64,000 nucleotides of DNA from an uncultured Pelagibacteraceae bacterium (GTDB taxonomy: Bacteria > Pseudomonadota > Alphaproteobacteria > Pelagibacterales > Pelagibacteraceae): the NCBI GenBank assembly GCA_902619815.1, contig CACNGH010000005.1, positions 15,640 through 79,639 on the forward strand. The letters are read 5' to 3'. How positions within the stretch are numbered: position 1 is the first letter of the stretch; every line of letters starts with the position of its first letter. Both the position numbers and the translations under genes were made by a program. The notes under the pieces were generated by a model. That model was not told the origin of the DNA. It saw only the letters and a list, made by a program, of their open reading frames with translations, and ran no database searches. Below are positions 2-21,557 of the stretch, in pieces.

Positions 2-292
2 ACAATGATGGTGGATGCTAAATTAGTACTCCTTGATGAGGTAGGTGCAGGAGTTAATAGAACACTTTTAAAAGATCTAGGAAGTGCAATAGAAAAATTG
101 AATAAAGAAAAAGGATATACTTTTTGTATGATCGAACATGATATGGATTTTATTGGAAGATTATGTGACCCAGTAATTGTAATGGCTGAAGGTTCAGTTT
201 TATTTGAAGGCTCTGTGGAAGATGCAAAAAAAGATGAAAAGGTCATTGAGAGTTATCTTGGAAGAGGATCTAAAATTAAGGATCATAACTAA
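2..292 (+). CDS. livG: Branched-chain amino acid-type ABC transporter ATP-binding subunit (LivG-like), 5'-truncated by window
   Basis: Walker B LLDEVGAG, H-loop MIEHDM, C-terminal VIESYLG; directly upstream of LivF/H/M-like genes. Confidence 0.85.
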   Translation, partial: TMMVDAKLVLLDEVGAGVNRTLLKDLGSAIEKLNKEKGYTFCMIEHDMDFIGRLCDPVIVMAEGSVLFEGSVEDAKKDEKVIESYLGRGSKIKDHN

Positions 293-999
293 TGGCATAT
301 TTTGAGGGGATAGAAATGACAGGAGGTTATGGAAATGGTCCTGATATAATAAACTCATGTACAGTAAATGTTAACAGAGGCGAAATAGTATCAATTCTAG
401 GTCCTAATGGAGCAGGTAAGTCTACTGCTATGAAAGCTATGTTAGGCTTATTAAATTTAAAATCTGGATCAATTAAAATAAACGGTAAAGATATTTCTAA
501 TCTTTCTCCACAAGATAGAGTTAAAGAAGGTATTTCTTTTGTTCCTCAAAACAAAAATGTTTTTGCCGGCATGACAGTTGAAGAGAACTTAGAAATGGGA
601 GCATTTCTCTTAAATGAGAAAATAGAAAATATAATAGGGGAAATTTATGAATTATTCCCAATTTTAAAAGAAAAAAGAAACCAATTAGTGGGTGAACTAT
701 CAGGTGGTCAAAGACAACAGGTTGCACTTGGTAGAGCGCTTATGATTAAACCAACAGTTTTGATGCTTGATGAGCCTACTGCTGGTGTTTCACCAATTGT
801 AATGGATGAATTGTTTGATCATATAGTAAAAGTCAAAAGAAACGATGTAGCAATTCTAATGGTTGAACAAAATGCCAAACAAGCATTGAGCATTTCTGAT
901 AGAGGTTATGTTTTGGTAACCGGAGAAAATCGTTATTCAGGAACAGGTAATGAGTTATTAAACGATCCAAGAGTAAGAAGCTCTTTTTTAGGAGGTTGA
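292..999 (+). CDS. livF: Branched-chain amino acid-type ABC transporter ATP-binding subunit (LivF-like)
   Basis: Walker A GPNGAGKS, signature LSGGQRQ, LDEPTAG, VEQNA. Confidence 0.9.
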   Translation: MAYFEGIEMTGGYGNGPDIINSCTVNVNRGEIVSILGPNGAGKSTAMKAMLGLLNLKSGSIKINGKDISNLSPQDRVKEGISFVPQNKNVFAGMTVEENLEMGAFLLNEKIENIIGEIYELFPILKEKRNQLVGELSGGQRQQVALGRALMIKPTVLMLDEPTAGVSPIVMDELFDHIVKVKRNDVAILMVEQNAKQALSISDRGYVLVTGENRYSGTGNELLNDPRVRSSFLGG

Positions 1000-1000
1000 T

Positions 1001-2011
1001 GTGGATATATTAAATGCATTAATTCTTTTATTAAATTATATTTTTATACCTGCACTTACATATGGGTCTCAATTAGCTCTTGGAGCAATTTTTGTTACTT
1101 TAATTTATGGAATTTTAAGATTTGCTAATTTTGCAACTGGAGACATGATGTCTTTTGGGACCATGGTAACAATATTATTCACCTGGTATTTTCAGTCACT
1201 AGGAATTTCTTTAGGAGTGTTGCCAACTGCATTAATAGCTATTCCTTTTGGAATTTTATTTATGATAGTTTATATGCTTTCGATAGATAAATTTGTATTT
1301 AAATATTACAGAGTTAACAAAAGCCCCCCTGTGCAATTAGCCATGGTTAGCATTGGAGTTATGTTTGTTACTCAAGCAGTGGTTAGAATTATTATTGGAC
1401 CTTCAGACCAAAGATTTTTTGATGGAGAAAAATTTATAATTAAAGCTAGAGAATTTAAAGAAATGACAGGACTTAATGAAGGTCTAGCATTGAAATCAAC
1501 ACAAGTAATTACAGTATTAGTTACAATTGTATTAGTGTCTTTGTTGTTTTGGTTTTTAAATAAAACTAAAACTGGTAAAAGCATGAAAGCTTATTCGGAT
1601 AACGAAGACTTGGCTTTACTTTCAGGAATAGATCCTAAAAAAATTGTAATGATAACATGGATAATTGCTGGAATCTTGGCAACTATAGGTGGTGCTTTGT
1701 ATGGATTAGATAAAAGCTTTAAACCATTTACTTATTTTAACAATATGCTTCCAATATTTGCTGCTGCTATTGTTGGGGGAATTGGAAACCCATTTGGTGC
1801 TTTTTTAGGAGGATATGTCATAGCTTTTTCTGAGATATTTCTAACTTATGCATATAAGAAATTTTTTATGTATATGTTGCCTGAAAGTATGGAACCTGAG
1901 AGTTTAGTTCAGCTTTTATCTACAGATTATAAATTTGCAGTCTCATTTTCAATATTAGTAATTGTATTACTCTATAGACCATCTGGGATATTTAAAGGGA
2001 AGGTACTGTGA
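1001..2011 (+). CDS. livH: Branched-chain amino acid-type ABC transporter permease (LivH-like)
   Basis: Polytopic; TLIYGILRFANFATG, GKSMKAYSDN, AAIVGGIG, RPSGIFKG. Confidence 0.88.
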   Translation: MDILNALILLLNYIFIPALTYGSQLALGAIFVTLIYGILRFANFATGDMMSFGTMVTILFTWYFQSLGISLGVLPTALIAIPFGILFMIVYMLSIDKFVFKYYRVNKSPPVQLAMVSIGVMFVTQAVVRIIIGPSDQRFFDGEKFIIKAREFKEMTGLNEGLALKSTQVITVLVTIVLVSLLFWFLNKTKTGKSMKAYSDNEDLALLSGIDPKKIVMITWIIAGILATIGGALYGLDKSFKPFTYFNNMLPIFAAAIVGGIGNPFGAFLGGYVIAFSEIFLTYAYKKFFMYMLPESMEPESLVQLLSTDYKFAVSFSILVIVLLYRPSGIFKGKVL

Positions 2012-3378
2012 GAAAAAATTTAAATGTTATTGCTGCTTATAGCATAATGATGGTTTTAATTATTCTTGTTGGTGTTTTTCAATCTTGGAATATCGCATTA
2101 TCAATTTTCAATATGTGTTTAATCTCAGCTGTAATGACAATGGGTGCAAACATTCAGTGGGGTTATGCAGGATTAATTAATTTTGGAATTATGGGATATA
2201 CCGCGCTAGGTGGATTGGCTGCAGTTTTGATTTCTGTTGATCCTGTTCAAGAAGCTTGGAGTGCTGGAGGTTTTGATATCTTGATGTGTCTATGGCTTAT
2301 CATAGCATTAGTATTAATTATTCGATTTATTTTAAAGAATTTTCAAAAGTCAAAGGTGAGAACTTATAGTATTGCAGCTCTTATAATCTCAGGAATTATA
2401 CTAATAAGATTCACAGCAGAACCAGGTATTGAGGCAATTGAGGATATCAATCCAGCCAAAACAGGTTTTCTTGGCGGTTTTGGATTACCTATTATTTTTT
2501 CATGGATAGTTGGTGCTTTTTTTGCGGGAGGTTTAGCATTTATAGTTGGAAAAGTGGCTTTAGGGTTAAGAGCTGACTATTTAGCAATTGCTACTCTTTT
2601 AATTTCAGAAATTGTTATAGCAATTATAAAACATGAGGACTGGTTAACTAGAGGTGTTAAAAATGTAATTGGTCTTAAAAGACCAGCTCCTTATGAAGTA
2701 GATCTTCAATCAACAGACTGGTTTATAACTTTAGTTGAAAAATTTAATTCTGGAAAATTAGAAGTATTTTCTAATTTATCTGATCGACAAGCTGCATTAA
2801 ACCAACTTGTAATAGAAGGCTCTTCTATCTTTGTAAAACTTTGTTATTCAGGATTATTTTTAACAGTAGTAATTATTTTATTAATCTTGACACAAAAAGC
2901 TCTTTACTCTCCGTGGGGTAGAATGATGAGAGCTATCAGAGATAATGAAGAAGCAGCAAACGCTATGGGAAAAAATGTTGTTAAACAGCATTTGTTAATT
3001 TTTATTTTAGGATCAGCAATTGTTGGAATTGCAGGAGCAATGTTGGTTACGCAAGATGGATTGTTTACCCCAGGAAGTTATCGACCCATGAGATATACCT
3101 TTTTAATTTGGGTTATGGTTATAGTGGGCGGAAGTGGAAATAATTTTGGAGCTATATTAGGTGGTTTTGCAGTTTGGTTTTTATGGATAGAGGCTGCTCC
3201 AATTGCTTTATTTTTAATAAACTTTTTTACTGCAGGGATGTCAGAAACTCATGCTCTAAAACTACATTTAATAGAGAGTGTACCTTACTTTAGATTTTTA
3301 ATGATGGGATTAGGTTTGTTGCTGATAATGAGGTATCGACCAAAAGGTATACTTCCTGAAAAAATAGAAATAAAATAA
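2008..3378 (+). CDS. livM: Branched-chain amino acid-type ABC transporter permease (LivM-like)
   Basis: GYAGLINFG, LRADYLAIATL, SPWGRMMRAIRDNE, RPKGILPE; GTG start overlaps livH stop. Confidence 0.88.
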   Translation: MRKNLNVIAAYSIMMVLIILVGVFQSWNIALSIFNMCLISAVMTMGANIQWGYAGLINFGIMGYTALGGLAAVLISVDPVQEAWSAGGFDILMCLWLIIALVLIIRFILKNFQKSKVRTYSIAALIISGIILIRFTAEPGIEAIEDINPAKTGFLGGFGLPIIFSWIVGAFFAGGLAFIVGKVALGLRADYLAIATLLISEIVIAIIKHEDWLTRGVKNVIGLKRPAPYEVDLQSTDWFITLVEKFNSGKLEVFSNLSDRQAALNQLVIEGSSIFVKLCYSGLFLTVVIILLILTQKALYSPWGRMMRAIRDNEEAANAMGKNVVKQHLLIFILGSAIVGIAGAMLVTQDGLFTPGSYRPMRYTFLIWVMVIVGGSGNNFGAILGGFAVWFLWIEAAPIALFLINFFTAGMSETHALKLHLIESVPYFRFLMMGLGLLLIMRYRPKGILPEKIEIK

Positions 3379-3500: not shown

Positions 3501-4691
3501 TTATCTTTGTTTTTTAGTTTTAAACTTTCCACCTTTAATTTCTTGCTCTAAAAAAGAACCTTCAGCTTCACCAACTGCGGTAAAAGCTACTCCAGTTGCA
3601 CCTTCGTAGTTAATCTTTTTACCTTTAGCTAGTAAATCTAAACCTTTTTTTAGTTCACCTGGATAAATCTTTGTTCCAGGAGCATTAGCAACATCCATCA
3701 CATTTTTTGCAATAGAACCTCTGTCTGCAGAATTACCTGCTTGCATTGCTAAAACGATTAAAGCTGCTGCATCGTATGACTCGCCTGTATAAGGTCCAGA
3801 AGAGTCTATACCACTTGCTTTTGCAACATCAGCAAAAACACCAGCACCTTTTCCAGTAGAACCAGGCATAGATCCAAAAGATTTACTCAAATCTTTTCCA
3901 AATGCATCAACCAAAGATTGACCGATCATACCATCAGATAAAATAAATTTATCAAATGCACCAGAATCTAATGAAGCTTGGATAATTCCTTTTCCACCTT
4001 GGTCAAGATATCCAATTACAGCTACAGCGTCTCCACCAGCTGAAGCAAGTGTTGCAACTTCTGATGAATAGTCAGCTTTACCGTCTTCGTGAGCTGTTAC
4101 TGTTGTTACTTTAATGCCATGAGCTTTAACAGCTGCTTCGTATACGTCAGCTAAACCTTTTCCATAGTCATTATTAGTATAAGTAATAGCTACACTTTTA
4201 ACTTTTCTATCTTTTGTAATATCTGCAAGAATTTGACCACCTCTAGCATCTGATGGAGCAGTTCTAAAGAAATATCCATTATCATCTAAAGTAGTTAATC
4301 CTGGAGAGGTTGCTGAAGGTGAAATCATTACTACACCGTTTGGTACAGCAACGTTTGATGCAATAGCACCTGTAACACCTGAACAATCAGCTCCCATGAT
4401 AGCAGCTACACCTTGTGAAATAATTCCTTCAGCTGCTGCAGTTGCTGCTGCAGAGTCGACACAAGTTGAGTCTGCTCTTACTGGTTCAATTTTTTTTCCA
4501 CCTAATAGCGAACCTGAATCAGAAGCTTCTTTAAATGCAAGCTCTGCTGATGCTGCCATAGCTGGTGTAAGAGATTCGATAGGACCTGTGAATCCTAAAA
4601 TAATCCCCATCTTGATAGCATGTCCGTCTGCCATTACATTCGATCCGAAACTAGAAACAAACATAAATACAGCGATAAATAGTTTTCTCAT
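3501..4691 (-). CDS. ABC transporter substrate-binding protein, LivK/LivJ family
   Basis: Signal peptide; GIILGFTGP, MISPSATSP, FFRTAPSD, YDAAALI; SD GAGG upstream. Confidence 0.9.
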   Translation of the reverse strand: MRKLFIAVFMFVSSFGSNVMADGHAIKMGIILGFTGPIESLTPAMAASAELAFKEASDSGSLLGGKKIEPVRADSTCVDSAAATAAAEGIISQGVAAIMGADCSGVTGAIASNVAVPNGVVMISPSATSPGLTTLDDNGYFFRTAPSDARGGQILADITKDRKVKSVAITYTNNDYGKGLADVYEAAVKAHGIKVTTVTAHEDGKADYSSEVATLASAGGDAVAVIGYLDQGGKGIIQASLDSGAFDKFILSDGMIGQSLVDAFGKDLSKSFGSMPGSTGKGAGVFADVAKASGIDSSGPYTGESYDAAALIVLAMQAGNSADRGSIAKNVMDVANAPGTKIYPGELKKGLDLLAKGKKINYEGATGVAFTAVGEAEGSFLEQEIKGGKFKTKKQR

Positions 4692-4803: not shown

Positions 4804-6285
4804 TTATCTAATTGAGAATGGATCTAATGAAGGTTCATCAGATGTATAAAACCAAGTTGTTTTTACTCTTGTATAATCTTTAATAGAATCTATGCCAGCT
4901 TCTTTGCCGTACCCACTGTCCTTTATACCTCCAAATGGAGCCGAAGGTGAAATTAGTCTGTAAGTATTAACAAAAGTAATTCCAGCTCTTATTGCCTTAG
5001 ATACTCTCATTCCTCTTGATAAATTGCTTGTATAAACACCTGAGGATAATCCATATTGATTATCATTCATTTTATTAATTACTTCCTCCTCTGTATCAAA
5101 TTTCATTACTGATAATATAGGCCCAAATAACTCATTTTCTGCAGTTGGCAGATTGTGATTATCACATTCTATAATTGTTGGTGGGAAGTAGTATCCTTTG
5201 TTTGAAAAGGAGTCTCTTTTACCACCACACTTAATTTTTCCACCTTGATCAACCGTATCTTTAATATTTTTTTCAATTGTCTCTAATTGTTTAAAACTAC
5301 TTAAAGGACCCATCTCTGTATCCAGATCCATTGGAGCTCCTATTTTTATTTTTGAAGCTCTACTAGAAAGCTTATCTAAAAATTCTTTATAAATTCCTTT
5401 TTGTATGTAAAGCCTTGAACCTGCAATACAGCTTTGTCCACTTGCTCCAAAAATTCCAGCAGTTATTCCATTCATTGCATTTTCTTGCTCCGCATCGTCA
5501 AATACAGCGACTGGACTTTTTCCACCAAGCTCTAAACTTACTTCAGAAAGATTTTCTGCTGAATTTTTAATAATACGTCTTGCAGTTTCTGGTCCTCCAG
5601 TAAATGCAATTTTCTCTACTAGATTATGTGTTGTTAAAGTTTTACCACAAGGATCGCCAAAACCTGTAATGACATTAACCACTCCTTTAGGTATGCCAGT
5701 TTTCTCAATAAGTTTTGCAAATTCAAACAAAACAGCAGGTGCAAGCTCTGAGGATTTTATAACCACAGTATTTCCCATTGCAAGGGCAGGGGCTAATTTA
5801 GTTGCTGTTAAGAACATTTGAGAGTTCCATGGAATGATTGCAGCAACAACTCCAATAGGTATTCTCGTTGTTATTGCTTGAACATTTGGTTTGTCTATTG
5901 GAAGAACTGTGCCTTCAACTTTATCAGCTAAACCCGCATAATAATCATAGTATTCTGCAATATAGTTTGCTTGTTGTTTCGTTTCTCTAAAAAGTTTTCC
6001 AGTATCTATGGTTTCAACCTTACCAAGCATCTCAGCATTTTTTCTTAACTGATCTCCAATTGCTCTTAAAAATTTAGCTCTATCTCTTGGAAGTAATTTT
6101 GGCCATTCACCTTCAAATGCTTTTTGTGCAGCTTTTACAGCTCTATCCACATCTTTTGTACTTGCCTCTGGCACAACTGCCCAAGGTTCATTATTTTCAG
6201 GATTTAAGGTTTCAAATGTTTTTTTACTTTCAGAGTCAACCCACTCCCCATCAATAAACATTTTATATTGTTTAAGTTTGCTCAT
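4804..6285 (-). CDS. NAD(P)-dependent aldehyde dehydrogenase (possibly TgnC-like)
   Basis: PWNSQ, FTGG, LELGGKSP, catalytic Cys in GQSCIAG, ELFGP, PFGG. Confidence 0.9.
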   Translation of the reverse strand: MSKLKQYKMFIDGEWVDSESKKTFETLNPENNEPWAVVPEASTKDVDRAVKAAQKAFEGEWPKLLPRDRAKFLRAIGDQLRKNAEMLGKVETIDTGKLFRETKQQANYIAEYYDYYAGLADKVEGTVLPIDKPNVQAITTRIPIGVVAAIIPWNSQMFLTATKLAPALAMGNTVVIKSSELAPAVLFEFAKLIEKTGIPKGVVNVITGFGDPCGKTLTTHNLVEKIAFTGGPETARRIIKNSAENLSEVSLELGGKSPVAVFDDAEQENAMNGITAGIFGASGQSCIAGSRLYIQKGIYKEFLDKLSSRASKIKIGAPMDLDTEMGPLSSFKQLETIEKNIKDTVDQGGKIKCGGKRDSFSNKGYYFPPTIIECDNHNLPTAENELFGPILSVMKFDTEEEVINKMNDNQYGLSSGVYTSNLSRGMRVSKAIRAGITFVNTYRLISPSAPFGGIKDSGYGKEAGIDSIKDYTRVKTTWFYTSDEPSLDPFSIR

Positions 6286-7060
6286 TAATATCTAAAAAAT
6301 TTTTAATAGTTAAATTTACTTCATCTGCACACTCAATACTACAAAGATGTTTGCCGTTTTCTATTATCTTCAATTTGCTGTTGTTGATTATTTGATTTAA
6401 TTCTTTTGCCATTTTAATTGTTGATCCCATATCAAGTTCACCAGTAATAATTAAAGTATTAACTTTTATTTTGTCAAAATCTTCATCATTTTTATGTTTA
6501 ACAAAAAGCTCATATAATTTTAGAAAATTTGTCATGTTATTTGACGAAATAATTGAGCTTATTTTTTCATACATATCTGGATTTTTTTCTAAATATTTGT
6601 CAGTAAACCATCTTTTAAGAGCTTGTTTCGAAAGCTTTAATTCTTTTTGAGCTTGCTCAAAACGTTGGTTTACAGTTTTTTGTTGTTCATCTGATCTTTT
6701 ATAAATTGAACCTATAAGTATTAATGATTTTAATCTTTGATTAAATCTCGATGCAAAATTCCTAGCAATCAAAGAACCGATCGAAAAGCCAATTAAGTGT
6801 AACTTTTGTATCCCAAGTTCATCTGTTAAGTCAATTATTTGGTCTGCAAGATCATCAAAAGATATGTTTTTTTTATTTAAAGAAGACTTACCGTGACCCA
6901 AAATATCGTAAGCAAGAACGGTTCGGTTTTTGAAAAAATCTAATTGGGGTTGCCAAATTTCGTAAGTTAAGCCAACACCATGAATAAACACGATGGGAAT
7001 ATCCTGCTCTTTTTTATTGAAGAAATAATGAGTTCCTGATGCAGTAGTTGCTATGGTCAT
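6272..7060 (-). CDS. Alpha/beta-fold hydrolase (possibly TgnD-like)
   Basis: FIHGVG, YDILGHGKS, nucleophile elbow GFSIG, GELD, C-terminal GKH. Confidence 0.88.
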   Translation of the reverse strand: MTIATTASGTHYFFNKKEQDIPIVFIHGVGLTYEIWQPQLDFFKNRTVLAYDILGHGKSSLNKKNISFDDLADQIIDLTDELGIQKLHLIGFSIGSLIARNFASRFNQRLKSLILIGSIYKRSDEQQKTVNQRFEQAQKELKLSKQALKRWFTDKYLEKNPDMYEKISSIISSNNMTNFLKLYELFVKHKNDEDFDKIKVNTLIITGELDMGSTIKMAKELNQIINNSKLKIIENGKHLCSIECADEVNLTIKNFLDINEQT

Positions 7061-7066
7061 TAAGTT

Positions 7067-7654
7067 TTACTTAGGCTCAATACCCATCTCTTTCATATCC
7101 TGATATCTATCACCTGTCCTTGCATGGGCTCTTCCACTTGAAGCACCTCCTATTGCGATCACAATCTCATCATCAAATGGTGCATCGTGAATAGTAAACT
7201 CATGAGTTAAATAATATGGCCTCAAACCCGAGTCTGTTTTGTGCATCATGGGAATTGATATTTTTGAACCAGCTGGACCCCTAGTATTTGTAAAACTTAA
7301 ATAAGATGTGCCGCCAACAGCATCTCTAAATTTATTCCCAAATCTTAAAGTATGTATAAACGCTGAGGCATGCTCTATCTCTCCGTTTAATCCAACAACT
7401 CCAGCTTTTCCATATGCTAGTATTTTATCAGGTGAACCCATCTCTTCAATTAATTCAGGCACAAGTAAATCTCCAAGTTTAGGAGCTAAATCCAAAATAG
7501 TTGGTCTAAGATCTTCAACAAAGCCTTGCCCGTGCCAAGGATTTTGAAAGACTGCAGCTACTGAAACTAATAAAACTGGTTCCTTAGCTTTCTTTCCACC
7601 TTCAATAAAAGTTTTGTCTACAAATTTTGTAAATTTCCTGATTTCTAATTTCAT
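7067..7654 (-). CDS. DUF1185 / 'amino acid synthesis family' protein
   Basis: AAVFQNPWHG, YGKAGVVGLNGEIEHASAFIH, IPMMHK, DAPFDDEIVIA, GRAHAR as recalled for this family. Confidence 0.8.
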   Translation of the reverse strand: MKLEIRKFTKFVDKTFIEGGKKAKEPVLLVSVAAVFQNPWHGQGFVEDLRPTILDLAPKLGDLLVPELIEEMGSPDKILAYGKAGVVGLNGEIEHASAFIHTLRFGNKFRDAVGGTSYLSFTNTRGPAGSKISIPMMHKTDSGLRPYYLTHEFTIHDAPFDDEIVIAIGGASSGRAHARTGDRYQDMKEMGIEPK

Positions 7655-8820
7655 TAACTTGCTTTTTCTATGTTGGAGCTATCTAAATTTATTTTAGGAA
7701 TTACTTCATCATTAAATAATTTAATACTTCTCATACAAGCCTCATGGTCTATTCCTGGAAAATTTGACCACACCTGAAGGTTTTGTAAATTCAACTCTGA
7801 TTTTAATTCATTGATCCTGTTAACAACATATTCTGGAGTACCAAATAATAAATTTCTTTTATGTAAAAATTCATAATTTAGCAATTCCAACTTATGTTTT
7901 GTTTCAGGTAATTCTTCACCTGGATCCATATGATTTCCTAAACCACGCCAATGACAAACCCATCTCATATAATTTATAATATGTTCACCAGCTAATTTTT
8001 CAGCTTCTTCCATAGTTTCAGCAACAAACATATCGCGTACTAAAGATATACCTTCACCCAAGGGAACTTCTCTATTCTCTGCTTTTGACTTTGCATCTTT
8101 GAAAATCTCAAATCTTTTCTTAAGAGCTTTAACTGTAGGTATCCACATAATAGTATTCAAACCGTTTTGTGCAGCCCATTCAATTGATCTCGCACCATCT
8201 ACTACTTGCCAAATTGGTGGATGTGGACTTTGTTTAGGCTTAGGGACAACACTAATTTTTTTTATTTCATTCGTCTCAATGTCCACAAACTCTTCATTAG
8301 GCGGGCTCATGTCGTGTTGCCACACAAAATTTGGAGATGGATAAGTATAGAATTCACCCTTATGACTAAAAAATTCCTCAGTCCATGCTTTTTTCATTAT
8401 TGTAAGAGACTCTTCAAACAATCTAAAATTTTTTGCTTGGTCCTTTAGATCGGCTTCTTTATTTAAATTCATTGCCTCTCTTCCATAAATTCCTCTGCCT
8501 ATACCAACTAGAGCTCTTCCGTTTGATAATTGATCTAATAAAGCAATGTCTTCAGCCAGTCTTAAAGGATTATGAAATGTAATGACATTGCATGCTTGTC
8601 CAATCTTTATTTGCTTAGTTCTTGCAGCAGCATCAACTCCCATCATTAATGGATTAGTACAAGACTCCATTCCCTCATGATTAAAATGATGCTCGGTATA
8701 CCAAATAGAGTCCCAATTATTTTCGTCACAATAAGTTGTTATCTCTTTTGTTTCATCTAGCAATTGATTGTAAGGTTTATGATCCCAATTAGTGGTGTTA
8801 CAAAAATATCCAAACTTCAT
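7654..8820 (-). CDS. Luciferase-like (LLM class) flavin-dependent monooxygenase
   Basis: WYTEHHF, NPLRLAEDIALLDQLSNGR, GIGRG, PKPKQSPHPPIW, GTPE, FNDEVIP; SD AAGGAGG. Confidence 0.92.
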   Translation of the reverse strand: MKFGYFCNTTNWDHKPYNQLLDETKEITTYCDENNWDSIWYTEHHFNHEGMESCTNPLMMGVDAAARTKQIKIGQACNVITFHNPLRLAEDIALLDQLSNGRALVGIGRGIYGREAMNLNKEADLKDQAKNFRLFEESLTIMKKAWTEEFFSHKGEFYTYPSPNFVWQHDMSPPNEEFVDIETNEIKKISVVPKPKQSPHPPIWQVVDGARSIEWAAQNGLNTIMWIPTVKALKKRFEIFKDAKSKAENREVPLGEGISLVRDMFVAETMEEAEKLAGEHIINYMRWVCHWRGLGNHMDPGEELPETKHKLELLNYEFLHKRNLLFGTPEYVVNRINELKSELNLQNLQVWSNFPGIDHEACMRSIKLFNDEVIPKINLDSSNIEKAS

Positions 8821-8908
8821 TCGAACCTCCTTAAATAATTAAATCTAAGACGATCGATCCCACTTTCGTAAATTTATGAATTTACCGACGAGTTATGTAT
8901 CGTTCTAT
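8821..8908 (-). ncRNA. Candidate cis-regulatory structured 5' leader (putative translational riboswitch) of the LLM operon
   Basis: SD-sequestering hairpin 8821-8857 competes with stem ACGAU/AUCGU (8899-8903 with 8850-8854), which encloses hairpin GUAAAUU-CAUA-AAUUUAC; hand folding only. Confidence 0.45.
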
Positions 8909-8914
8909 AAAAGA

Positions 8915-8943
8915 ACTCTATTATTAGTAATGTTTATATTCAA
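8915..8943 (-). promoter_or_regulatory. Putative sigma70 promoter of LLM operon
   Basis: TTGAAT (8938-8943) - 17 nt - TAGAGT (8915-8920) on minus strand. Confidence 0.5.
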
Positions 8944-9009
8944 TAAGTTTTATATATGGGTCTAATTCAAAAAATCTAATATTTACCTGTTGTTTGAAAC
9001 TTTATTAAA

Positions 9010-10417: not shown

Positions 10418-11164
10418 ATGAATTCAACAAAAATAGATCCTAAATATATCAGCAAATCAAATCCGAGAGTTGGGCTAATTGCACTTGCGAGCGATTTAAT
10501 GATTGAAAAGGATTTTATAAATGTAATTAAAGATAAAGATATAGATTTTTTTGTAAATCGAATTGAGTGTTATAATCCTCTAACAAAAGAAAACTTAATT
10601 AAAATGTCAGAAAAAGTAACAGAAGTTACAAAAGATATTTTACCAGATCAAGATTTAGATTGTGTAGTATATGGCTGTACCTCAGGAACTATTGCTGTTG
10701 GACATGCATCAATTGAAAAAAAAGTAAAGGCAGCAAAACCTAAAGCAGATGTGACCACACCAAGCACAGCTGCAATTACAGCACTTAAAAAAATGAATAT
10801 TAATAAAATTTGCCTATTTACTCCTTATAGCAAAAAACTAAATGATGAAGTTTTAGAGTATTTTAAAAGTGAGGGTTTCGATATTACATCGAATGCTTAT
10901 TTTGATATCGAGTCTGATCTTGATATTGGTAAAGTTGATCAAAATTATTTGTATGAAGTATTATCTAACATCGATTTAAATAATGCAGATGCTCTGTTTG
11001 TTTCATGTACAGCTCTTCCAGTTTTACCCATCATAGATAAATTAGAAAAGAAATTAAATACTATAGTTTTATCAAGCAACCAGGCATTGATTTGGGATAC
11101 CCTTGTTAAAATTAATAAAAATAATTCAGTAGAAGGATTTGGCAAATTATTCCAAATAAATTGA
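10418..11164 (+). CDS. eutA: Ectoine utilisation protein EutA-like (Asp/Glu racemase / maleate isomerase family)
   Basis: Two catalytic Cys in YGCTSG and FVSCTAL; FTPY, SSNQA; coupled to EutD-like gene. Confidence 0.7.
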   Translation: MNSTKIDPKYISKSNPRVGLIALASDLMIEKDFINVIKDKDIDFFVNRIECYNPLTKENLIKMSEKVTEVTKDILPDQDLDCVVYGCTSGTIAVGHASIEKKVKAAKPKADVTTPSTAAITALKKMNINKICLFTPYSKKLNDEVLEYFKSEGFDITSNAYFDIESDLDIGKVDQNYLYEVLSNIDLNNADALFVSCTALPVLPIIDKLEKKLNTIVLSSNQALIWDTLVKINKNNSVEGFGKLFQIN

Positions 11165-12333
11165 TGCTTTTTACAAAAGAAGAGTACAAACAAAGATTAA
11201 ATAAAGTTCAACGTATGATGCAAGAAAAAGGCATAGAACTTTTAATTTCTCATGATACCAATAACTTAAACTATTTAACAGGTTATGATGCCTGGTCATT
11301 TTATTATGCTCAGTGTGCGATTGTGCACGTCAATGCTGAGGAGCCCCTGTGTTTTGTCAGAGCTCAAGATGCAGGAGGTGCTTATTTAAAAACTTACTTA
11401 AAAAATGAAAATATTCTAGTTTATGATGAGTCTTATATTCATACGTGGCCAAAACATCCTTATGATTACTTGGTAAATATACTTAAAGACAGAAAGTGGG
11501 ATAAATTATCAATTGGTTTAGAGATGGATGCACATTATTTTACAGCATTTTGTTATGAAAAAATTAAATCTGGATTGCCTAATGCTAAACTTAAAGATAG
11601 CGATCGCCTAGTTAATTGGGCAAGATTGGTTAAGTCAGATCCTGAAATAACCTATATGAAAGCTGCTGCTAAAATTTCTGAAAGAGGAATGAAAACTGCC
11701 ATGGAAGTTATTAATCCAGGTGTAAGGCAATGTGATGCTGTTGGGGAAATTCAAAAATCATTATTTTATGGTACAGAAGAATTTGGAGGTGAATACGCAA
11801 GTATTGCAACATTGGTACCAACAGGGAAAGGAACCTCAGCATCTCATTTGACTGCTACCCAAGATAAATTTGCAGAAGGTGAAGCAACAATTGTTGAATT
11901 ATCAGGAACTTATAAGAGATATCATGCTCCAATAGCTCGAACAGTTTTATTAGGCAAACCTGATCAAAAAAAAATTGATACCATGAAGAAAACAATTGAA
12001 GCTCTGAATTCAGGTATTAGCGCGATCAAACCAGGTAATACAGCCGATGATGTAGCTCAAGCATTTTGGAAAATTTTAGATAAATATGGAATAGAAAAAA
12101 AATCTAGAACAGGATATTCGATTGGAATTGGTTATCCTCCAGATTGGGGAGAACACACTTTAAATATTTATAAAGGTGATATGACTGTGCTTAAACCAAA
12201 TGTCTGTTTTCATATGATCGCAGTAATGCAATTTGGTGATTGGGGGGTTGAAGCTTCTGAAGCGATTAGAGTTACTGAGAATGGCTCTGAATTATTCTGT
12301 GATTTTCCAAAAGAACTCCATATTAAGAGCTAA
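11164..12333 (+). CDS. eutD: Ectoine hydrolase EutD/DoeA (M24 peptidase fold)
   Basis: YLTGYDAWSFYYAQ, LVNWARLVKS, SASHLT, RTGYSIGIGYPPDWGEHT; ATG overlaps eutA stop (TGATG). Confidence 0.85.
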   Translation: MLFTKEEYKQRLNKVQRMMQEKGIELLISHDTNNLNYLTGYDAWSFYYAQCAIVHVNAEEPLCFVRAQDAGGAYLKTYLKNENILVYDESYIHTWPKHPYDYLVNILKDRKWDKLSIGLEMDAHYFTAFCYEKIKSGLPNAKLKDSDRLVNWARLVKSDPEITYMKAAAKISERGMKTAMEVINPGVRQCDAVGEIQKSLFYGTEEFGGEYASIATLVPTGKGTSASHLTATQDKFAEGEATIVELSGTYKRYHAPIARTVLLGKPDQKKIDTMKKTIEALNSGISAIKPGNTADDVAQAFWKILDKYGIEKKSRTGYSIGIGYPPDWGEHTLNIYKGDMTVLKPNVCFHMIAVMQFGDWGVEASEAIRVTENGSELFCDFPKELHIKS

Positions 12334-12378
12334 TTAGCTATTGAATTCTATTTCTACAAATGTTTTATATTCACCTTT

Positions 12379-13464
12379 ATGTCTAATAATCCAGAATTCG
12401 TTAAATTTGATAAAGTTGACAAAAGCTATGATGGTAAAGTTCTAGTTGTAAAAGATCTTCAGTTAGATATTGCGGAAGGTGAGTTCATTACTATGCTTGG
12501 TCCCTCTGGATCCGGCAAAACAACTTGTCTGATGATGCTTGCTGGCTTTGAAACTCCAACAAACGGAGAGATCTTGTTAGATGGAAATATAATTTCTAAT
12601 ATTCCACCTCACAAAAGAGGAATAGGAATGGTTTTTCAAAATTATGCACTTTTTCCTCATATGACTGTTTATGAAAATCTAGCTTTCCCTTTAAGAGTTA
12701 GAAAAATGGAAAAAGATGAAATTGATAAGAAAGTTGACAAAGCTTTATCAATGGTTTCACTAAATGGGTTTGAAACAAGAATGCCAGGACAACTTTCAGG
12801 AGGACAACAACAAAGGGTAGCTGTAGCTAGAGCTTTAGTTTTTGATCCTGCAGTGGTTTTGATGGACGAACCTTTAGGTGCGTTGGATAAAAATTTAAGA
12901 GAGAGTATGCAATATGAAATTAAACATATTCATGAAAGCATTGGAGTAACTGTAGTTTACGTTACTCATGATCAAAGTGAAGCTCTTACAATGTCGAATA
13001 GAATTGCAGTGTTTAATGATGGAAAAGTTCAACAGCTATCAAATCCTTCAGAGCTTTATGAAAAACCAGTAAATTCATTTGTCGCAGAGTTTATTGGTGA
13101 AAATAATACCTTTAATGGTGAGGTATCAGATATTTCAGGAGATGAATGTAAAGTTAAGCTGTCTAACGCAGAAATTATAGCTAGTGCTATTTCAGTAAAA
13201 TCTAAAGGTGAAAAAACAACAGTATCTTTGAGACCTGAGAGAGCTTTAATCGAACCAAGTGAAAAAATGGACAATATGTTTAGTGGCAAGATAGAAGAGG
13301 TAATTTATCATGGTGATCATACTAGAGTTCGAATTAATTTATTAGGAAACCCAGAATTTATTTTAAAGGTCCCAAACAGCACTTCCAATCTAGAACTTAA
13401 GGTCAAACAAGATATTAAAATCGGTTGGAATAGTTCTGATGCAAGAGCTTTAGACCCAAAATAA
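12379..13464 (+). CDS. potA: PotA-like ABC transporter ATP-binding protein
   Basis: GPSGSGKT, VFQNYALFPHM, LSGGQQQR, DEPLGALD, TOBE-like C-terminus. Confidence 0.88.
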   Translation: MSNNPEFVKFDKVDKSYDGKVLVVKDLQLDIAEGEFITMLGPSGSGKTTCLMMLAGFETPTNGEILLDGNIISNIPPHKRGIGMVFQNYALFPHMTVYENLAFPLRVRKMEKDEIDKKVDKALSMVSLNGFETRMPGQLSGGQQQRVAVARALVFDPAVVLMDEPLGALDKNLRESMQYEIKHIHESIGVTVVYVTHDQSEALTMSNRIAVFNDGKVQQLSNPSELYEKPVNSFVAEFIGENNTFNGEVSDISGDECKVKLSNAEIIASAISVKSKGEKTTVSLRPERALIEPSEKMDNMFSGKIEEVIYHGDHTRVRINLLGNPEFILKVPNSTSNLELKVKQDIKIGWNSSDARALDPK

Positions 13465-13511
13465 ACAATCCATACATTAAAGTATAACACTTATAAGAAC
13501 ATTATAAGCTG

Positions 13512-13540
13512 TTGACTCTTAATAGTCATTTTGGTGTAAT
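13512..13540 (+). promoter_or_regulatory. Internal sigma70 promoter for the PotD-like gene with overlapping inverted repeat
   Basis: TTGACT (13512-17) - 17 nt - TGTAAT (13535-40); TGACT-N6-AGTCA at 13513-13528. Confidence 0.55.
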
Positions 13541-13586
13541 TTACTTATATAAATTAATTTATATTAAACGTTTAAACGGAGGAATA

Positions 13587-14705
13587 ATGAGAAAAATAAG
13601 TAAATTGATACTTGCTCTTTCTTTTGTTGTATCTGTAACCTCTTCAGCCTTTGCTGTTACTGTAGCATCATGGGGTGGAGCTTATACAGACTCTCAAAAA
13701 CAAGGGTATGGTGATCCAACAGCAGCAGCTCTAGGTGTAGATATCAACTGGGTTGACTATTCTGGTGGACTATCAGAAATAAAAGCTCAAAAAGAAGCGG
13801 GTGCTATAACTTGGGATATTATCGATGTATTTGCATTTGATACTATCAATGGTTGTGACGAAGGTTTGTTTGTTAAATTTGATTTTGACAAAGACTTTCC
13901 AGCAGCTCCAGATGGAACACCAGCTAGTGAAGACTTTTTTGCTCCAATGCCAAGTGAATGTGCAGTAGGAAATATTCTGTACTCTTGGAATTATGCTTTT
14001 GACACAAGAGCATTTGATGGAAAAGAGCCTAAAACTATTAAAGACTTTTTTAACACTAAAAAATTTCCAGGTAAAAGAGCGATCTACAAAAGTGCTCTTA
14101 CAAATCTAGAAATCGCTTTAGCTGCTGACGGTGTAAATATGGGTAAAGGTGGAGAATTACTTTACAGAAAACTTGAAGAAGAAGGCGGTGTTGACAGAGC
14201 TATGAATAAAATTAAAGAACTTTGTACAGATCCAAATGGTGGATGTGTATTCTGGTCTGCAGGTGCTCAACCACCAGAATTATTAGTTGCTGGTGAAGTT
14301 GTAATGGCAACTGGTTGGAACGGAAGATTCTTTAACGCTGAAGTAGGTGAAGGCGCTCCAATTAAGCAAGTATGGCATGGTCAAGGTCTTGACTATGAGT
14401 ATTTTGCATTAGTTAAGGGTGGACCAGATGAAGCAAATGCTAAAAAAGCTTTAGCTATGATGACTAACACTGAGATGTTAGCTGGTAGTGCGAAGTACAT
14501 TGCATATGCTCCTTACAGATTATCATCTTTAGATATTATCAAAGCTAATGAGCCTTGGTACAAAGACGGTAAAACTGAAATGATGCCACAAATGCCTACA
14601 TCTCCTCAAAACACTAAGAAATATTTCTTAGTTGATCCTTTCTACTGGGCTGATAACGGAACAGAGATTGGTGAAAAATGGGAAGCAATGAAAGCAGGCC
14701 TATAA
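13587..14705 (+). CDS. potD: PotD/PotF-family substrate-binding protein (ligand uncertain)
   Basis: GGAGG SD before ATG 13587, signal peptide, SWGGAY, KKFPGKR, GWNGR. Confidence 0.8.
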   Translation: MRKISKLILALSFVVSVTSSAFAVTVASWGGAYTDSQKQGYGDPTAAALGVDINWVDYSGGLSEIKAQKEAGAITWDIIDVFAFDTINGCDEGLFVKFDFDKDFPAAPDGTPASEDFFAPMPSECAVGNILYSWNYAFDTRAFDGKEPKTIKDFFNTKKFPGKRAIYKSALTNLEIALAADGVNMGKGGELLYRKLEEEGGVDRAMNKIKELCTDPNGGCVFWSAGAQPPELLVAGEVVMATGWNGRFFNAEVGEGAPIKQVWHGQGLDYEYFALVKGGPDEANAKKALAMMTNTEMLAGSAKYIAYAPYRLSSLDIIKANEPWYKDGKTEMMPQMPTSPQNTKKYFLVDPFYWADNGTEIGEKWEAMKAGL

Positions 14706-14741
14706 TTTCAGTTTTAAACACTGAATTAATATAATATATTT

Positions 14742-14772
14742 AGGGCGGTTATTTACTAACCGCCCTTTTTTT
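14742..14772 (+). terminator. Intrinsic terminator / mRNA-stabilising hairpin after PotD-like gene
   Basis: AGGGCGGTTA-TTTAC-TAACCGCCCT perfect 10-bp stem plus T-tract. Confidence 0.85.
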
Positions 14773-16035
14773 ATGAGCTCAGAAACAAAACAAATTTTAA
14801 CTACTGACGGAATTCCACTTGAAGTCAGTCTAAAAAAGGCAGAAAAGAAGAATAAAATTAAAGCTTTTCTTCTAGTTGCTCCATTACTGTTATTTTTATT
14901 TATCACTTATGTTTTTCCAATCGGAGAAATGTTTACTAGAAGTGTAGATGATAGAATGGTTACTAACATGCTCCCTAAAACCTTTAAAGCAATGGAAAAA
15001 TGGGATGGAAAAGAATTACCTCCAGAGGAAGTCTTTGTAGGCTTTTACTCAGATTTCAAAGTTTTGGTGGAAAACCAAACTCAAGGGAAACTTGGCCAAA
15101 GATTAAATAAAGAAAAGAATGGTTTCAACTCCATTACCAAGAAATTAATGAGACAAATCAAAAGAAATAAAATTGATGAACGCCAAAGCATAAAAGAGCA
15201 AATTATGAAAGTCCATAAAAGATGGAGAGATGTCGAATATTGGCAAGCAATCAAACGAACTGCTCCTCCTTACACTATGGCAAAATATTTAAAAGGTATG
15301 GATATGTACTTTGCAGCGGATGGAAGTATTGCCCAGGTCGATGAAGACAGAAGAATTCATAGAATACTTTGGTTAAGAACCTTAGAAATAGCATTGTTTG
15401 TAACAATTTTCTGTTTTTTAATGGGTTATCCAATAGCTCACTTACTTGCAACATTGCCAATGAAATATAGCAATCTTTTAATGATATGTGTCCTATTACC
15501 TTTTTGGACCTCTCTACTAGTAAGAACTGCCAGTTGGATGATTTTACTGCAGCAACAAGGAATCGTGAACGATTTCTTTGTACTTATTGGTCTTGTCGCA
15601 GATAACAATAGACCAGAGATGATGTACAACAAAGTTGGAACCTATGTGGCAATGACACAAATATTATTACCTTTCATGGTACTACCACTCTATAGTGTTA
15701 TGAAAACAATATCTCCAAGTTTAATGAGAGCAGGGAAATCATTAGGTGGAACCCCATTTGTTGCTTTTTGGAAAGTTTATTTTCCATTAACTATTCCAGG
15801 CATTGGTGCAGGTTGCTTGTTAGTGTTTATTTTAGCAATTGGGTATTACATTACACCGGCATTAGTTGGAGGAGCCTCAGGTACTTTAATTAGTAATCAA
15901 ATTGCTTATCACATGAAATCAACATTAGATTGGAGTTTTGCATCAGCGATGGGTTTAATGCTGTTGTCAGGAGTATTGGTTATTTATTGGATTTATAACA
16001 AATTAGTTGGAGTAGATAATATTAAATTAGGATAA
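14773..16035 (+). CDS. potB: PotB-like ABC permease with large extracytoplasmic insertion
   Basis: LLPFWTSLLVR, LPFMVLPLY, AGKSLG EAA-like loop, YYITPALVGG. Confidence 0.88.
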   Translation: MSSETKQILTTDGIPLEVSLKKAEKKNKIKAFLLVAPLLLFLFITYVFPIGEMFTRSVDDRMVTNMLPKTFKAMEKWDGKELPPEEVFVGFYSDFKVLVENQTQGKLGQRLNKEKNGFNSITKKLMRQIKRNKIDERQSIKEQIMKVHKRWRDVEYWQAIKRTAPPYTMAKYLKGMDMYFAADGSIAQVDEDRRIHRILWLRTLEIALFVTIFCFLMGYPIAHLLATLPMKYSNLLMICVLLPFWTSLLVRTASWMILLQQQGIVNDFFVLIGLVADNNRPEMMYNKVGTYVAMTQILLPFMVLPLYSVMKTISPSLMRAGKSLGGTPFVAFWKVYFPLTIPGIGAGCLLVFILAIGYYITPALVGGASGTLISNQIAYHMKSTLDWSFASAMGLMLLSGVLVIYWIYNKLVGVDNIKLG

Positions 16036-16037
16036 TT

Positions 16038-21537: not shown

Positions 21538-21557
21538 AGAGAGGATACTTTTCTCAA

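What the first reader, a model, noticed from the sequence alone, without database searches (positions are those of the whole stretch)
4804..8820. LLM monooxygenase-DUF1185-hydrolase-ALDH operon: probable pyridine-betaine (trigonelline/homarine) catabolism feeding the C1 cluster
Seen: four co-directional genes with 1-nt overlap, 6-nt gap and 14-nt overlap; no flavin reductase or regulator adjacent. Established, from memory: the Acinetobacter baylyi trigonelline (Tgn) pathway uses a luciferase-like oxygenase, an ALDH, an alpha/beta-hydrolase and a small accessory protein, and releases methylamine, formate and succinate. Inference: this is a minimal version of such a pathway. Its products would be consumed by GmaS/Mgs/Mgd and Fhs encoded 26-55 kb away in this window, linking algal N-methylpyridinium osmolytes to C1 metabolism. 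The reductase must be supplied in trans.
Basis: partly seen in the sequence, partly recalled or inferred. Interest (0 to 1): 0.7.

Follow-up and report, generated by a model that had tools for sequence, protein, structure and literature searches.

The report
SAR11 trigonelline-like ring-opening gene cassette
This is a real four-gene operon of the ocean bacterium Pelagibacter (SAR11) that shares two, perhaps three, of its four enzymes with the known trigonelline breakdown pathway but uses an unrelated ring-opening oxygenase, so it probably degrades trigonelline or a similar small nitrogen-ring compound that is still unidentified.

Summary
Four minus-strand genes (LLM monooxygenase, DUF1185/AA_synth, alpha/beta hydrolase, ALDH) have exactly the stated overlaps and no adjacent reductase or regulator.

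The genome is a Pelagibacter (SAR11). The genes form a fixed-order accessory cassette, found in 75 of 116 same-genus species genomes. It sits as an insertion between an eutA/doeA-like operon and the core liv binding-protein gene.

The trigonelline reading is partly supported:
- The DUF1185 protein and the ALDH fall in the same well-supported clades as those of rhizobial tgn-type clusters (57% and 50% identity).
- The oxygenase does not: 27% identity, and dozens of other LLM lineages lie between the two.
- The hydrolase is inconclusive at 24% identity.
- No PF01613 flavin reductase exists in this or five complete cassette-bearing SAR11 genomes. No bona fide succinate-semialdehyde dehydrogenase was found.

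The published homarine genes (homA about 700 nt, homB about 1,700 nt) do not fit this cassette.

Most SAR11 species carry a five-gene form with an extra thiamine-dependent enzyme; this window has the minority four-gene form. A conserved, riboswitch-like leader precedes the operon and occurs once per genome.

The substrate is unproven. Trigonelline is the leading single candidate. The C1 genes 26-55 kb away are real, but nothing links them specifically to the cassette.

This scan already reported the same operon, with the same reading, in at least six other SAR11 windows.

The parts
7654..8820 (-). Luciferase-like (LLM) flavin-dependent monooxygenase, 388 aa; the presumed ring-opening oxygenase, of a lineage distinct from TgnB
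   Evidence: PF00296 at 147 bits, with no NCBIfam family over its cut-off. The nearest solved structures are FMN-dependent luciferase and 3,6-diketocamphane monooxygenase. It is 27% identical to the rhizobial tgn-type LLM. It falls in a separate clade with 99% support, together with SAR11 family 2 and the G500/G356 paralogues.
7067..7654 (-). DUF1185 / AA_synth protein, 195 aa; TgnF-like accessory protein, inferred to handle an enamine/imine
   Evidence: PF06684 at 217 bits. It is 57% identical to the Ensifer cluster protein. It lies inside the 26-row clade (100% support) that holds every AA_synth found beside an LLM, hydrolase or ALDH. RidA replaces it in sister clusters.
6272..7060 (-). Alpha/beta-fold hydrolase, 262 aa, with a GFSIG nucleophile motif; possible TgnD counterpart
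   Evidence: PF00561 at 95 bits. Its best NCBIfam neighbours are the PcaD/PcaDC enol-lactonases, the same as for the Ensifer hydrolase. It is only 24% identical to the Ensifer protein. It evolves fast: 46-49% identity between SAR11 strains whose LLMs are 81-90% identical.
4804..6285 (-). NAD(P)-dependent aldehyde dehydrogenase, 493 aa; TgnC-like
   Evidence: PF00171 at 532 bits. It is 50% identical to the ALDH beside the Ensifer LLM but 36% to the cluster's SSADH. A 25-row clade (100% support) holds only ALDHs of tgn-type, SAR11-type and RidA/hydrolase clusters, plus two rows without such a neighbour in the stretch fetched. The 18 next-best stand-alone ALDHs form a separate clade.
8821..8903 (-). 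Conserved 5' leader. P1 pairs 8903-8899 with 8854-8850. The invariant core is ACATAACTC...RAAGYGGGATC (8898-8856) with a variable hairpin inside. An AT-rich hairpin abuts the Shine-Dalgarno sequence (8832-8826).
   Evidence: The alignment of 27 leaders from two SAR11 families has 25 invariant columns within otherwise variable AT-rich DNA. For the named P1 and P2 helices, 94% of cells are paired and 3 pairs change on both sides. The motif occurs once per genome, always at this operon. There is no Rfam match. RNAalifold alone predicted nothing.

Best explanation
This is an accessory SAR11 catabolic operon for the oxidative ring opening of a small nitrogen heterocycle. The substrate is most likely a pyridinium or pyridine carboxylate, and trigonelline is the leading single candidate.

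Inferred mechanism, by analogy with Tgn:
1. The LLM enzyme takes reduced FMN from a generic cellular reductase and opens the ring to an N-formyl enamine aldehyde.
2. The TgnC-like ALDH oxidises the aldehyde to the acid.
3. The alpha/beta hydrolase removes the formyl group.
4. The DUF1185 protein helps to resolve the resulting enamine or imine, as RidA does elsewhere. This releases an amine (methylamine if the substrate is N-methylated) and a C4/C5 acid for central metabolism.

Shown here: the gene set, its conservation as a unit, orthology of the DUF1185 protein and the ALDH with tgn-type clusters, non-orthology of the oxygenase, and the lack of a dedicated reductase or protein regulator. Inferred: the chemistry, the substrate, and control by the conserved leader RNA.
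For: - A tgn-type cluster with the same four families plus a reductase, GntR and SSADH sits beside noeAB on an Ensifer symbiotic plasmid and on a Rhizobium plasmid.
- Identities to the Ensifer proteins: DUF1185 57%, ALDH 50%.
- In the AA_synth tree, all cluster-associated members, SAR11 included, form one long-branch clade with 100% support, apart from 87 others.
- In the ALDH tree, a 25-row clade with 100% support joins the SAR11, tgn-type and RidA/hydrolase-cluster ALDHs. The next-best ALDHs are separate.
- The two hydrolases share the same profile neighbours, PcaD-like.
- The LLM's nearest solved relatives are FMN-dependent two-component oxygenases.
- Four of the 12 tgn-type clusters sampled also lack an adjacent reductase, and PF03358 FMN-reductase-family genes exist in all SAR11 genomes checked.
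- The cassette behaves as one unit. It keeps a fixed order in 80 species. It is present in 75 of 116 same-genus and 16 of 60 second-family genomes. It is a clean presence/absence insertion next to a core gene.
- From the literature: TgnB is an LLM and TgnA/TgnB open the trigonelline ring.
Against: - The oxygenase is not TgnB-like, so the substrate cannot be transferred by homology.
- The hydrolase is only 24% identical to the tgn-type one.
- No SSADH reaches the TIGR01780 cut-off (best 490 bits against 646) in this 87%-complete genome.
- Most SAR11 cassettes carry an extra Xsc/acetolactate-synthase-like thiamine-dependent enzyme that has no role in the Tgn scheme.
- The A. baylyi Tgn proteins themselves could not be compared, and the Perchat 2018 paper is not held. 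The rhizobial cluster therefore served as a proxy.
- There is no biochemical or expression evidence.
Confidence: 0.55

Rival explanations
1. The substrate is not a nitrogen heterocycle. On this reading the LLM acts as a Baeyer-Villiger-type or other oxygenase on a cyclic ketone, lactone or similar carbon skeleton. The PcaD-like hydrolase opens an (enol-)lactone or ester, and the ALDH finishes the oxidation. The resemblance to Tgn would then reflect a reusable 'hydrolase + ALDH + small trimeric protein' module.
For: - The best full-length solved relative of the LLM is 3,6-diketocamphane monooxygenase, a Baeyer-Villiger enzyme.
- The hydrolase's best profiles are 3-oxoadipate enol-lactonases.
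- The ALDH scores highly against ring-fission semialdehyde dehydrogenases such as HpaE.
- The module combines with different oxygenases and extra enzymes in other alphaproteobacteria, for example an amidohydrolase, an aldo-keto reductase, a cupin and ThDP enzymes.
Against: - The only characterised pathway using this DUF1185 + ALDH clade is trigonelline catabolism.
- RidA, an enamine/imine deaminase family, substitutes for DUF1185 in sister clusters. This points to nitrogen-bearing intermediates.
- All profile scores are far below the family cut-offs.
Confidence: 0.2
2. This is a straightforward trigonelline pathway. It would be a minimal tgn operon with the same chemistry and the same products (methylamine, formate, CO2, succinate semialdehyde) that feed the GmaS/Mgs/Mgd and Fhs genes in the window.
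For: - The four families are the same, and the DUF1185 protein and ALDH are orthologous.
- Methylamine and formate genes are present in the window.
- Trigonelline is a common marine metabolite (paper read).
Against: - The oxygenase is non-orthologous.
- There is no SSADH over the cut-off.
- The commoner SAR11 form includes a ThDP enzyme that Tgn chemistry does not need.
- The C1 genes are at least 25 kb away, and no test here tied them to the cassette.
Confidence: 0.2
3. This is a homarine (N-methylpicolinate) pathway, either the published one or a second route.
For: - Homarine is abundant and SAR11 is reported to degrade it.
- The reported hom intermediate C7H9NO5 has, by my calculation, the same formula as the Tgn intermediate MFMS (its structure recalled from memory), so similar lower-pathway chemistry is conceivable.
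Against: - The published homA is about 700 nt with an FAD-binding motif and homB about 1,700 nt of unclear function. Here the first two genes are a 1,167-nt LLM and a 588-nt DUF1185 gene.
- The hom route ends in N-methylglutamate, not in an amine plus an acid.
- The hom sequences were not on hand, so this rests on sizes and domain descriptions only.
Confidence: 0.04

Closest known systems
Trigonelline degradation cluster tgn of Acinetobacter baylyi ADP1 (Perchat et al. 2018, PNAS; paper not held, details from memory). Represented here by the homologous clusters on Ensifer canadensis pT173b and Rhizobium sp. TH2 pTH2a.
   Same: The four protein families are the same: LLM oxygenase, DUF1185, alpha/beta hydrolase and ALDH. 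The DUF1185 protein (57% identity) and the ALDH (50%) lie in the same clades. Both hydrolases are PcaD-like. The genes form a tight operon.
   Different: - The oxygenase belongs to another LLM lineage (27% identity).
- There is no PF01613 reductase anywhere in the genome.
- There is no GntR regulator; a conserved RNA leader is present instead.
- There is no linked SSADH or dedicated transporter.
- Most SAR11 versions add a ThDP enzyme.
- The gene order differs: LLM first here, against F-D-A-B-C in the rhizobial clusters.
Homarine operon homABCDER (Ferrer-Gonzalez et al. 2026, Nat Microbiol, PMC13236597)
   Same: It is a pathway for an N-methylpyridinium carboxylate. It is reported in SAR11. 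It includes a hydrolase/peptidase-like HomC and an ALDH-like HomD. The methyl group is kept through ring opening.
   Different: HomA (about 700 nt, FAD motif) and HomB (about 1,700 nt) do not correspond to an LLM and a DUF1185 protein. The product is N-methylglutamate, which is processed by Mgd.
Rut pyrimidine pathway (RutA LLM, RutB, RutC RidA-family, RutD alpha/beta hydrolase, RutF reductase); established knowledge
   Same: The logic is the same: an LLM opens an N-heterocycle, followed by a hydrolase and a RidA-fold protein that handles an enamine. The reductase can be replaced in trans.
   Different: RutA is not among the 25 best NCBIfam matches listed for the LLM (26 matched in all). RutD scores 83 bits against a cut-off of 238. 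There is no RutB or RutC, and an ALDH is present in place of RutE.

Membership tests
Tgn trigonelline cluster | Oxygenase component orthologous to TgnB (LLM) | tested here: not met
   27% identity to the tgn-type LLM. That LLM type is not among the 150 best 50%-identity clusters for the SAR11 LLM. The two clades are separated by branches with 99% support, with 35 and 50 other LLM clusters on either side (FastTree). The proxy was the rhizobial cluster, not the ADP1 protein.
Tgn trigonelline cluster | Dedicated flavin reductase TgnA (PF01613) in the cluster | tested here: not met
   None adjacent. There is no PF01613 match in G000 (87% complete) or in 5 complete cassette-bearing SAR11 genomes. 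Note that 4 of the 12 tgn-type clusters sampled also lack it.
Tgn trigonelline cluster | TgnC-type aldehyde dehydrogenase | tested here: met
   50% identity to the ALDH beside the tgn-type LLM, against 36% to the SSADH. They share a 25-row clade with 100% support, distinct from the next-best ALDHs.
Tgn trigonelline cluster | TgnD-type alpha/beta hydrolase | tested here: inconclusive
   24% identity. Both have the same PcaD-like profile neighbours. An intermediate form exists in L121, 37% identical to the tgn type and 32% to SAR11. No outgroup-rooted tree was made.
Tgn trigonelline cluster | TgnF, a DUF1185/PF06684 protein of the cluster-associated clade | tested here: met
   57% identity. It lies in the 26-row clade with 100% support, although outside the tgn-type subclade (97% support).
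Tgn trigonelline cluster | Succinate-semialdehyde dehydrogenase TgnE | tested here: not met
   Not in the cassette. The best TIGR01780 score in G000 is 490 bits against a cut-off of 646. The genome is 87% complete.
Tgn trigonelline cluster | GntR-type regulator TgnR | tested here: not met
   No regulator gene lies beside the cassette. A conserved leader RNA is present instead.
Tgn trigonelline cluster | Turnover of trigonelline to methylamine, formate, CO2 and succinate semialdehyde | not testable with these tools
   This needs enzyme assays or labelled-substrate experiments.
hom homarine operon | Adjacent homA (about 700 nt, FAD motif) and homB (about 1,700 nt) | tested here: not met
   Gene sizes and domains here are 1,167 nt (LLM) and 588 nt (DUF1185), against the description read.
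Rut pyrimidine pathway | RutA and RutD equivalogs | tested here: not met
   RutA is not among the 25 best NCBIfam matches listed for the LLM (26 matched in all). RutD scores 83 bits against a cut-off of 238.5.
Known riboswitch classes (Rfam 15) | Leader matches a curated covariance model | tested here: not met
   No match at E<=1 in 8821-9009.

The most novel reading that the evidence does not exclude
The cassette and its dedicated leader RNA form a riboswitch-controlled pathway for an abundant marine nitrogen-ring compound that is not trigonelline and has no known degradation route. The SAR11-type LLM would be a new ring-opening oxygenase. DUF1185 would be a functional equivalent of the RidA enamine/imine deaminases. 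The optional thiamine-dependent enzyme would decarboxylate a 2-oxo acid produced by the pathway.
Probability: 0.3. Interest if true: 0.75.

Novelty: new variant of a known kind. Interest (0 to 1): 0.55.

Why it matters
SAR11 is the most abundant bacterial group in the surface ocean and has very few accessory catabolic operons. This one is present in about two thirds of the Pelagibacter species sampled. Close homologues are very numerous in metagenomes, with single 90%-identity clusters holding up to 2,852 sequences.

Identifying the substrate would add a defined carbon and nitrogen flux, possibly from algal N-methylpyridinium osmolytes, to models of ocean dissolved organic matter. It would also give a function to an LLM lineage and clarify the role of DUF1185. 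If the leader is a riboswitch, its ligand would name the substrate directly. No paper in the held library describes this operon.

Tried and rejected
- **Liv-type ABC transporter as part of the pathway: rejected.** The genes are the SBP at 3501-4691 and livFHM at 292-3378. The SBP is kept at 91-92% identity in five complete SAR11 genomes that lack the cassette, and the cassette is an insertion beside it.
- **Identity with the hom operon: rejected** on gene sizes and domains.
- **A hidden hom-like or ThDP+ALDH pair elsewhere in the genome (G000:C1): rejected.** It is an inositol-type sugar cluster.
- **Rfam scan of the leader and operon:** nothing relevant.
- **RNAalifold on the leader alignment:** no structure predicted. 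Only a hand-named structure could be counted.
- **Promoter and terminator scan:** no more sites than in shuffled sequence.
- **The single genome-contig scan** returned only Pelagibacter loci. Named Acinetobacter baylyi or Ruegeria loci could therefore not be fetched.
- **Perchat et al. 2018** is not held.
- **The supplementary tables of the homarine paper** are not held.
- **IQ-TREE for the LLM set** did not finish in the time limit, so FastTree was used. The AA_synth tree shown is the quick IQ-TREE search.
- **Two SAR11 proteome papers** do not mention these genes in their main text.
- **NCBIfam annotation of the extra genes in locus L121** (isochorismatase-family protein, cupin, aldo-keto reductase) gave no substrate clue.


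Full report
**Observation.** The four minus-strand ORFs are exactly as described: 8820..7654, 7654..7067, 7060..6272 and 6285..4804. This gives a 1-nt overlap, a 6-nt gap and a 14-nt overlap. Pfam assigns them to Bac_luciferase (LLM), AA_synth (PF06684, the former DUF1185), alpha/beta hydrolase and Aldedh. No NCBIfam equivalog is reached by any of them. The ALDH keeps the catalytic Cys/Glu motifs and the hydrolase a GFSIG nucleophile elbow, both visible in the alignments. Neighbours on the same strand are a 4HBT thioesterase and an EamA transporter upstream and a Liv-type binding protein downstream. None of the flanking genes scanned is a reductase or a regulator.

**Organism and unit of inheritance.** The window lies in a 1.13-Mb, 87%-complete genome. 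The 80 closest loci found with the DUF1185 query, at 91-97% identity, are all Pelagibacter or Pelagibacteraceae. PF06684 occurs in 75 of 116 same-genus species genomes and in 16 of 60 genomes of a second SAR11 family.

Across the Pelagibacter loci the order LLM-(ThDP enzyme)-AA_synth-hydrolase-ALDH never changes, while the flanks do (4HBT, EamA, arginase-family gene, eutA-like gene). Complete SAR11 genomes without the cassette keep the Liv binding protein at 91-92% identity. In them the eutA/doeA-like operon lies directly next to it, or separated by only an EamA gene. The cassette is therefore a clean accessory insertion, and the adjacent ABC transporter is a core gene rather than part of the pathway.

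**Two forms.** About 61 of the 88 or so loci classified carry a 565-aa thiamine-diphosphate enzyme between the LLM and DUF1185 genes. It is closest to sulfoacetaldehyde acetyltransferase and acetolactate synthase but well below their cut-offs. This window has the minority four-gene form, and its genome has no close copy of that enzyme elsewhere (best 30% identity). A DMT/EamA transporter gene often follows the ALDH in other strains but not here.

**Comparison with trigonelline clusters.** A tblastn search of plasmids found, beside noeA/noeB on Ensifer canadensis pT173b, the cluster GntR - AA_synth - alpha/beta hydrolase - flavin reductase - LLM - ALDH - NIPSNAP - ABC transporter - SSADH. A near-identical set lies on a Rhizobium plasmid. 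This matches what I recall of the A. baylyi tgn cluster. The held literature confirms only that TgnB is an LLM and that TgnA/TgnB open the trigonelline ring. The original paper is not held.

| SAR11 protein | Identity to Ensifer counterpart |
|---|---|
| DUF1185 | 57% |
| ALDH | 50% (36% to the cluster's SSADH) |
| LLM | 27% |
| Hydrolase | 24% |

**Phylogeny.** I fetched every PF06684 locus from a sample of 400 alphaproteobacterial genomes and classified the neighbours.

- *AA_synth tree.* All copies that sit beside an LLM, hydrolase or ALDH form one long-branch clade of 26 rows with 100% support. It contains a tgn-type subclade (97% support) and the SAR11 group (99%). The other 87 copies, mostly tandem pairs of the BB2672/SPO0826 type, lie outside it.
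- *ALDH tree.* A 25-row clade with 100% support unites the SAR11, tgn-type and related cluster ALDHs. The 18 next-best ALDHs (43-49% identity), none of which has such neighbours, form a separate clade.
- *LLM tree.* The result is the opposite. The tgn-type LLM is not among the 150 best 50%-identity clusters for the SAR11 protein. In a FastTree phylogeny the two types sit on opposite sides of branches with 99% support, with dozens of unrelated LLM clusters on each side.

The SAR11-type LLM is rare elsewhere. It was found at E<=1e-40 in 13 of 401 genomes (G000 included), with 46% identity at best. One unnamed alphaproteobacterium (locus L121) combines two such LLMs with an ALDH (53% identity), a DUF1185 protein (60%) and a hydrolase (32%).

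**What the module does.** In five other loci the same ALDH clade and a related hydrolase are paired with a RidA/L-PSP protein. Four of these lack DUF1185 (L222, L225, L226, L227) and one has both (L200). [quoted passage not shown] From established knowledge, RidA/YjgF proteins have a similar fold and hydrolyse enamines and imines. I therefore infer that DUF1185 handles the enamine or imine left after deformylation of a ring-fission product.

The hom pathway intermediates reported for homarine include C7H9NO5. By my own calculation this has the same formula as the Tgn intermediate MFMS, whose structure I give from memory. That suggests 'oxygenase, ALDH, deformylating hydrolase, enamine resolution' is a general scheme for N-methylpyridinium carboxylates, with a different oxygenase for each substrate. 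This is inference, not a result.

**Reductase and end product.**
- PF01613 is absent from this genome and from five complete cassette-bearing SAR11 genomes.
- PF03358-family genes are present in all genomes checked. In this genome the gene is at G000:C6:58535-59122 and is AzoR-like at low score.
- Four of the 12 tgn-type clusters sampled also lack an adjacent reductase, so its absence is not decisive.
- No ALDH in the genome reaches the SSADH cut-off. This weakens a literal transfer of the Tgn end steps.

**Homarine.** The published hom genes (homA about 700 nt with an FAD motif, homB about 1,700 nt, a peptidase-like HomC and an ALDH-like HomD, ending in N-methylglutamate) do not fit the first two genes here.

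**Regulation.** The 189-nt upstream spacer holds a motif conserved in both SAR11 families, even though their LLM proteins are only about 54% identical. The motif is ACGAU/GCGAU, then ACAUAACUC, a hairpin of variable length, RAAGYGGGAUC, and AUCGU/GUCGU. An AT-rich hairpin follows and ends at the Shine-Dalgarno sequence. The two named helices are 94% paired, and three pairs change on both sides, mostly between the two families, so independent events are few. The motif occurs once per genome, only here, and matches no Rfam family. RNAalifold on its own predicted nothing. It looks like a dedicated cis-regulator, possibly a riboswitch. This is suggestive, not shown.

**C1 link.** GmaS-type, Mgs-like, Tdm and Fhs genes are present at the stated distances. 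They lie at least 25 kb from the cassette, and no test here tied them to it. They would accept methylamine and formate if these are produced, but they give no specific evidence.

**Verdict.** The operon is real, conserved and widespread. It is a variant of the trigonelline-type ring-cleavage scheme with a non-orthologous oxygenase, no dedicated reductase or protein regulator, and an RNA leader. The substrate is unknown, with trigonelline the best single guess.

**Earlier reports.** Earlier reports of this scan on other SAR11 genomes reached the same reading. I read them after my own comparison with the rhizobial clusters, and they are not independent evidence. New here are:
- the presence/absence insertion structure beside the core liv gene;
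- the ALDH clade test;
- the substitution of RidA for DUF1185;
- the reductase-less tgn-type clusters;
- the exclusion of hom by gene size.

Noticed in passing
window 8821-8903 (minus strand): A conserved leader motif upstream of the LLM gene is shared by two SAR11 families. It occurs once per genome and matches no Rfam family. It looks like a riboswitch, but covariation support is modest.
   Followed up: partly
L022:8301-10004; L215:7761-9458: Most SAR11 versions of the cassette (about 61 of 88 loci) carry a 565-aa thiamine-dependent enzyme between the LLM and DUF1185 genes. It is Xsc/acetolactate-synthase-like but below the family cut-offs. This window lacks it, and the genome has no close copy elsewhere.
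   Followed up: partly
L222, L225, L226, L227, L200 (unnamed alphaproteobacteria): The same ALDH clade, with an alpha/beta hydrolase beside it in L222, L226 and L200, is paired with a RidA/L-PSP gene. In four loci RidA stands in place of DUF1185, and in L200 both are present. This hints that DUF1185 has a RidA-like role.
   Followed up: partly
window 6272-7060 compared with L219-L221: The hydrolase is only 46-49% identical between SAR11 strains whose LLM, DUF1185 and ALDH proteins are 78-92% identical. It is closer (median 61%) to hydrolases of the five-gene form. This suggests fast evolution or recombination within the cassette.
   Followed up: no
window 10418-16892 (plus strand): An eutA-like (Asp/Glu racemase family) gene and a doeA/eutD-like M24 hydrolase gene lie with an ABC transporter. 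Both score below the ectoine equivalog cut-offs (202 against 318, and 455 against 613). This may be a pathway for an ectoine-like compound rather than ectoine itself.
   Followed up: no
window 20578-24178: An arginase-family gene, a second ALDH and an M20 peptidase gene lie together. This may be a guanidino-compound or N-acyl amino acid catabolic set.
   Followed up: no
L121 (G500:C116:1-20000): An unnamed alphaproteobacterium has two SAR11-type LLM genes around one ALDH/DUF1185/hydrolase set. The locus also holds an aldo-keto reductase, a cupin, an isochorismatase-family hydrolase, a TetR-like regulator and two transporters. It could be a useful cultivable model if the organism can be identified.
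   Followed up: partly
L187 (G537:C2:54000-73500): A genome of 1.4 Mb from another alphaproteobacterial family carries a tgn-type cluster (LLM 57% identical to the Ensifer LLM) without an adjacent flavin reductase. It shows that reductase loss also occurs in the canonical type.
   Followed up: no
L244:7040-10419 (G000:C1:133039-136418): An IolD-like ThDP enzyme, an ALDH, GFO/IDH/MocA and 2-hydroxyacid dehydrogenases and a sugar-type ABC transporter lie together. This is an inositol-like catabolic cluster in the same genome, unrelated to the finding.
   Followed up: no
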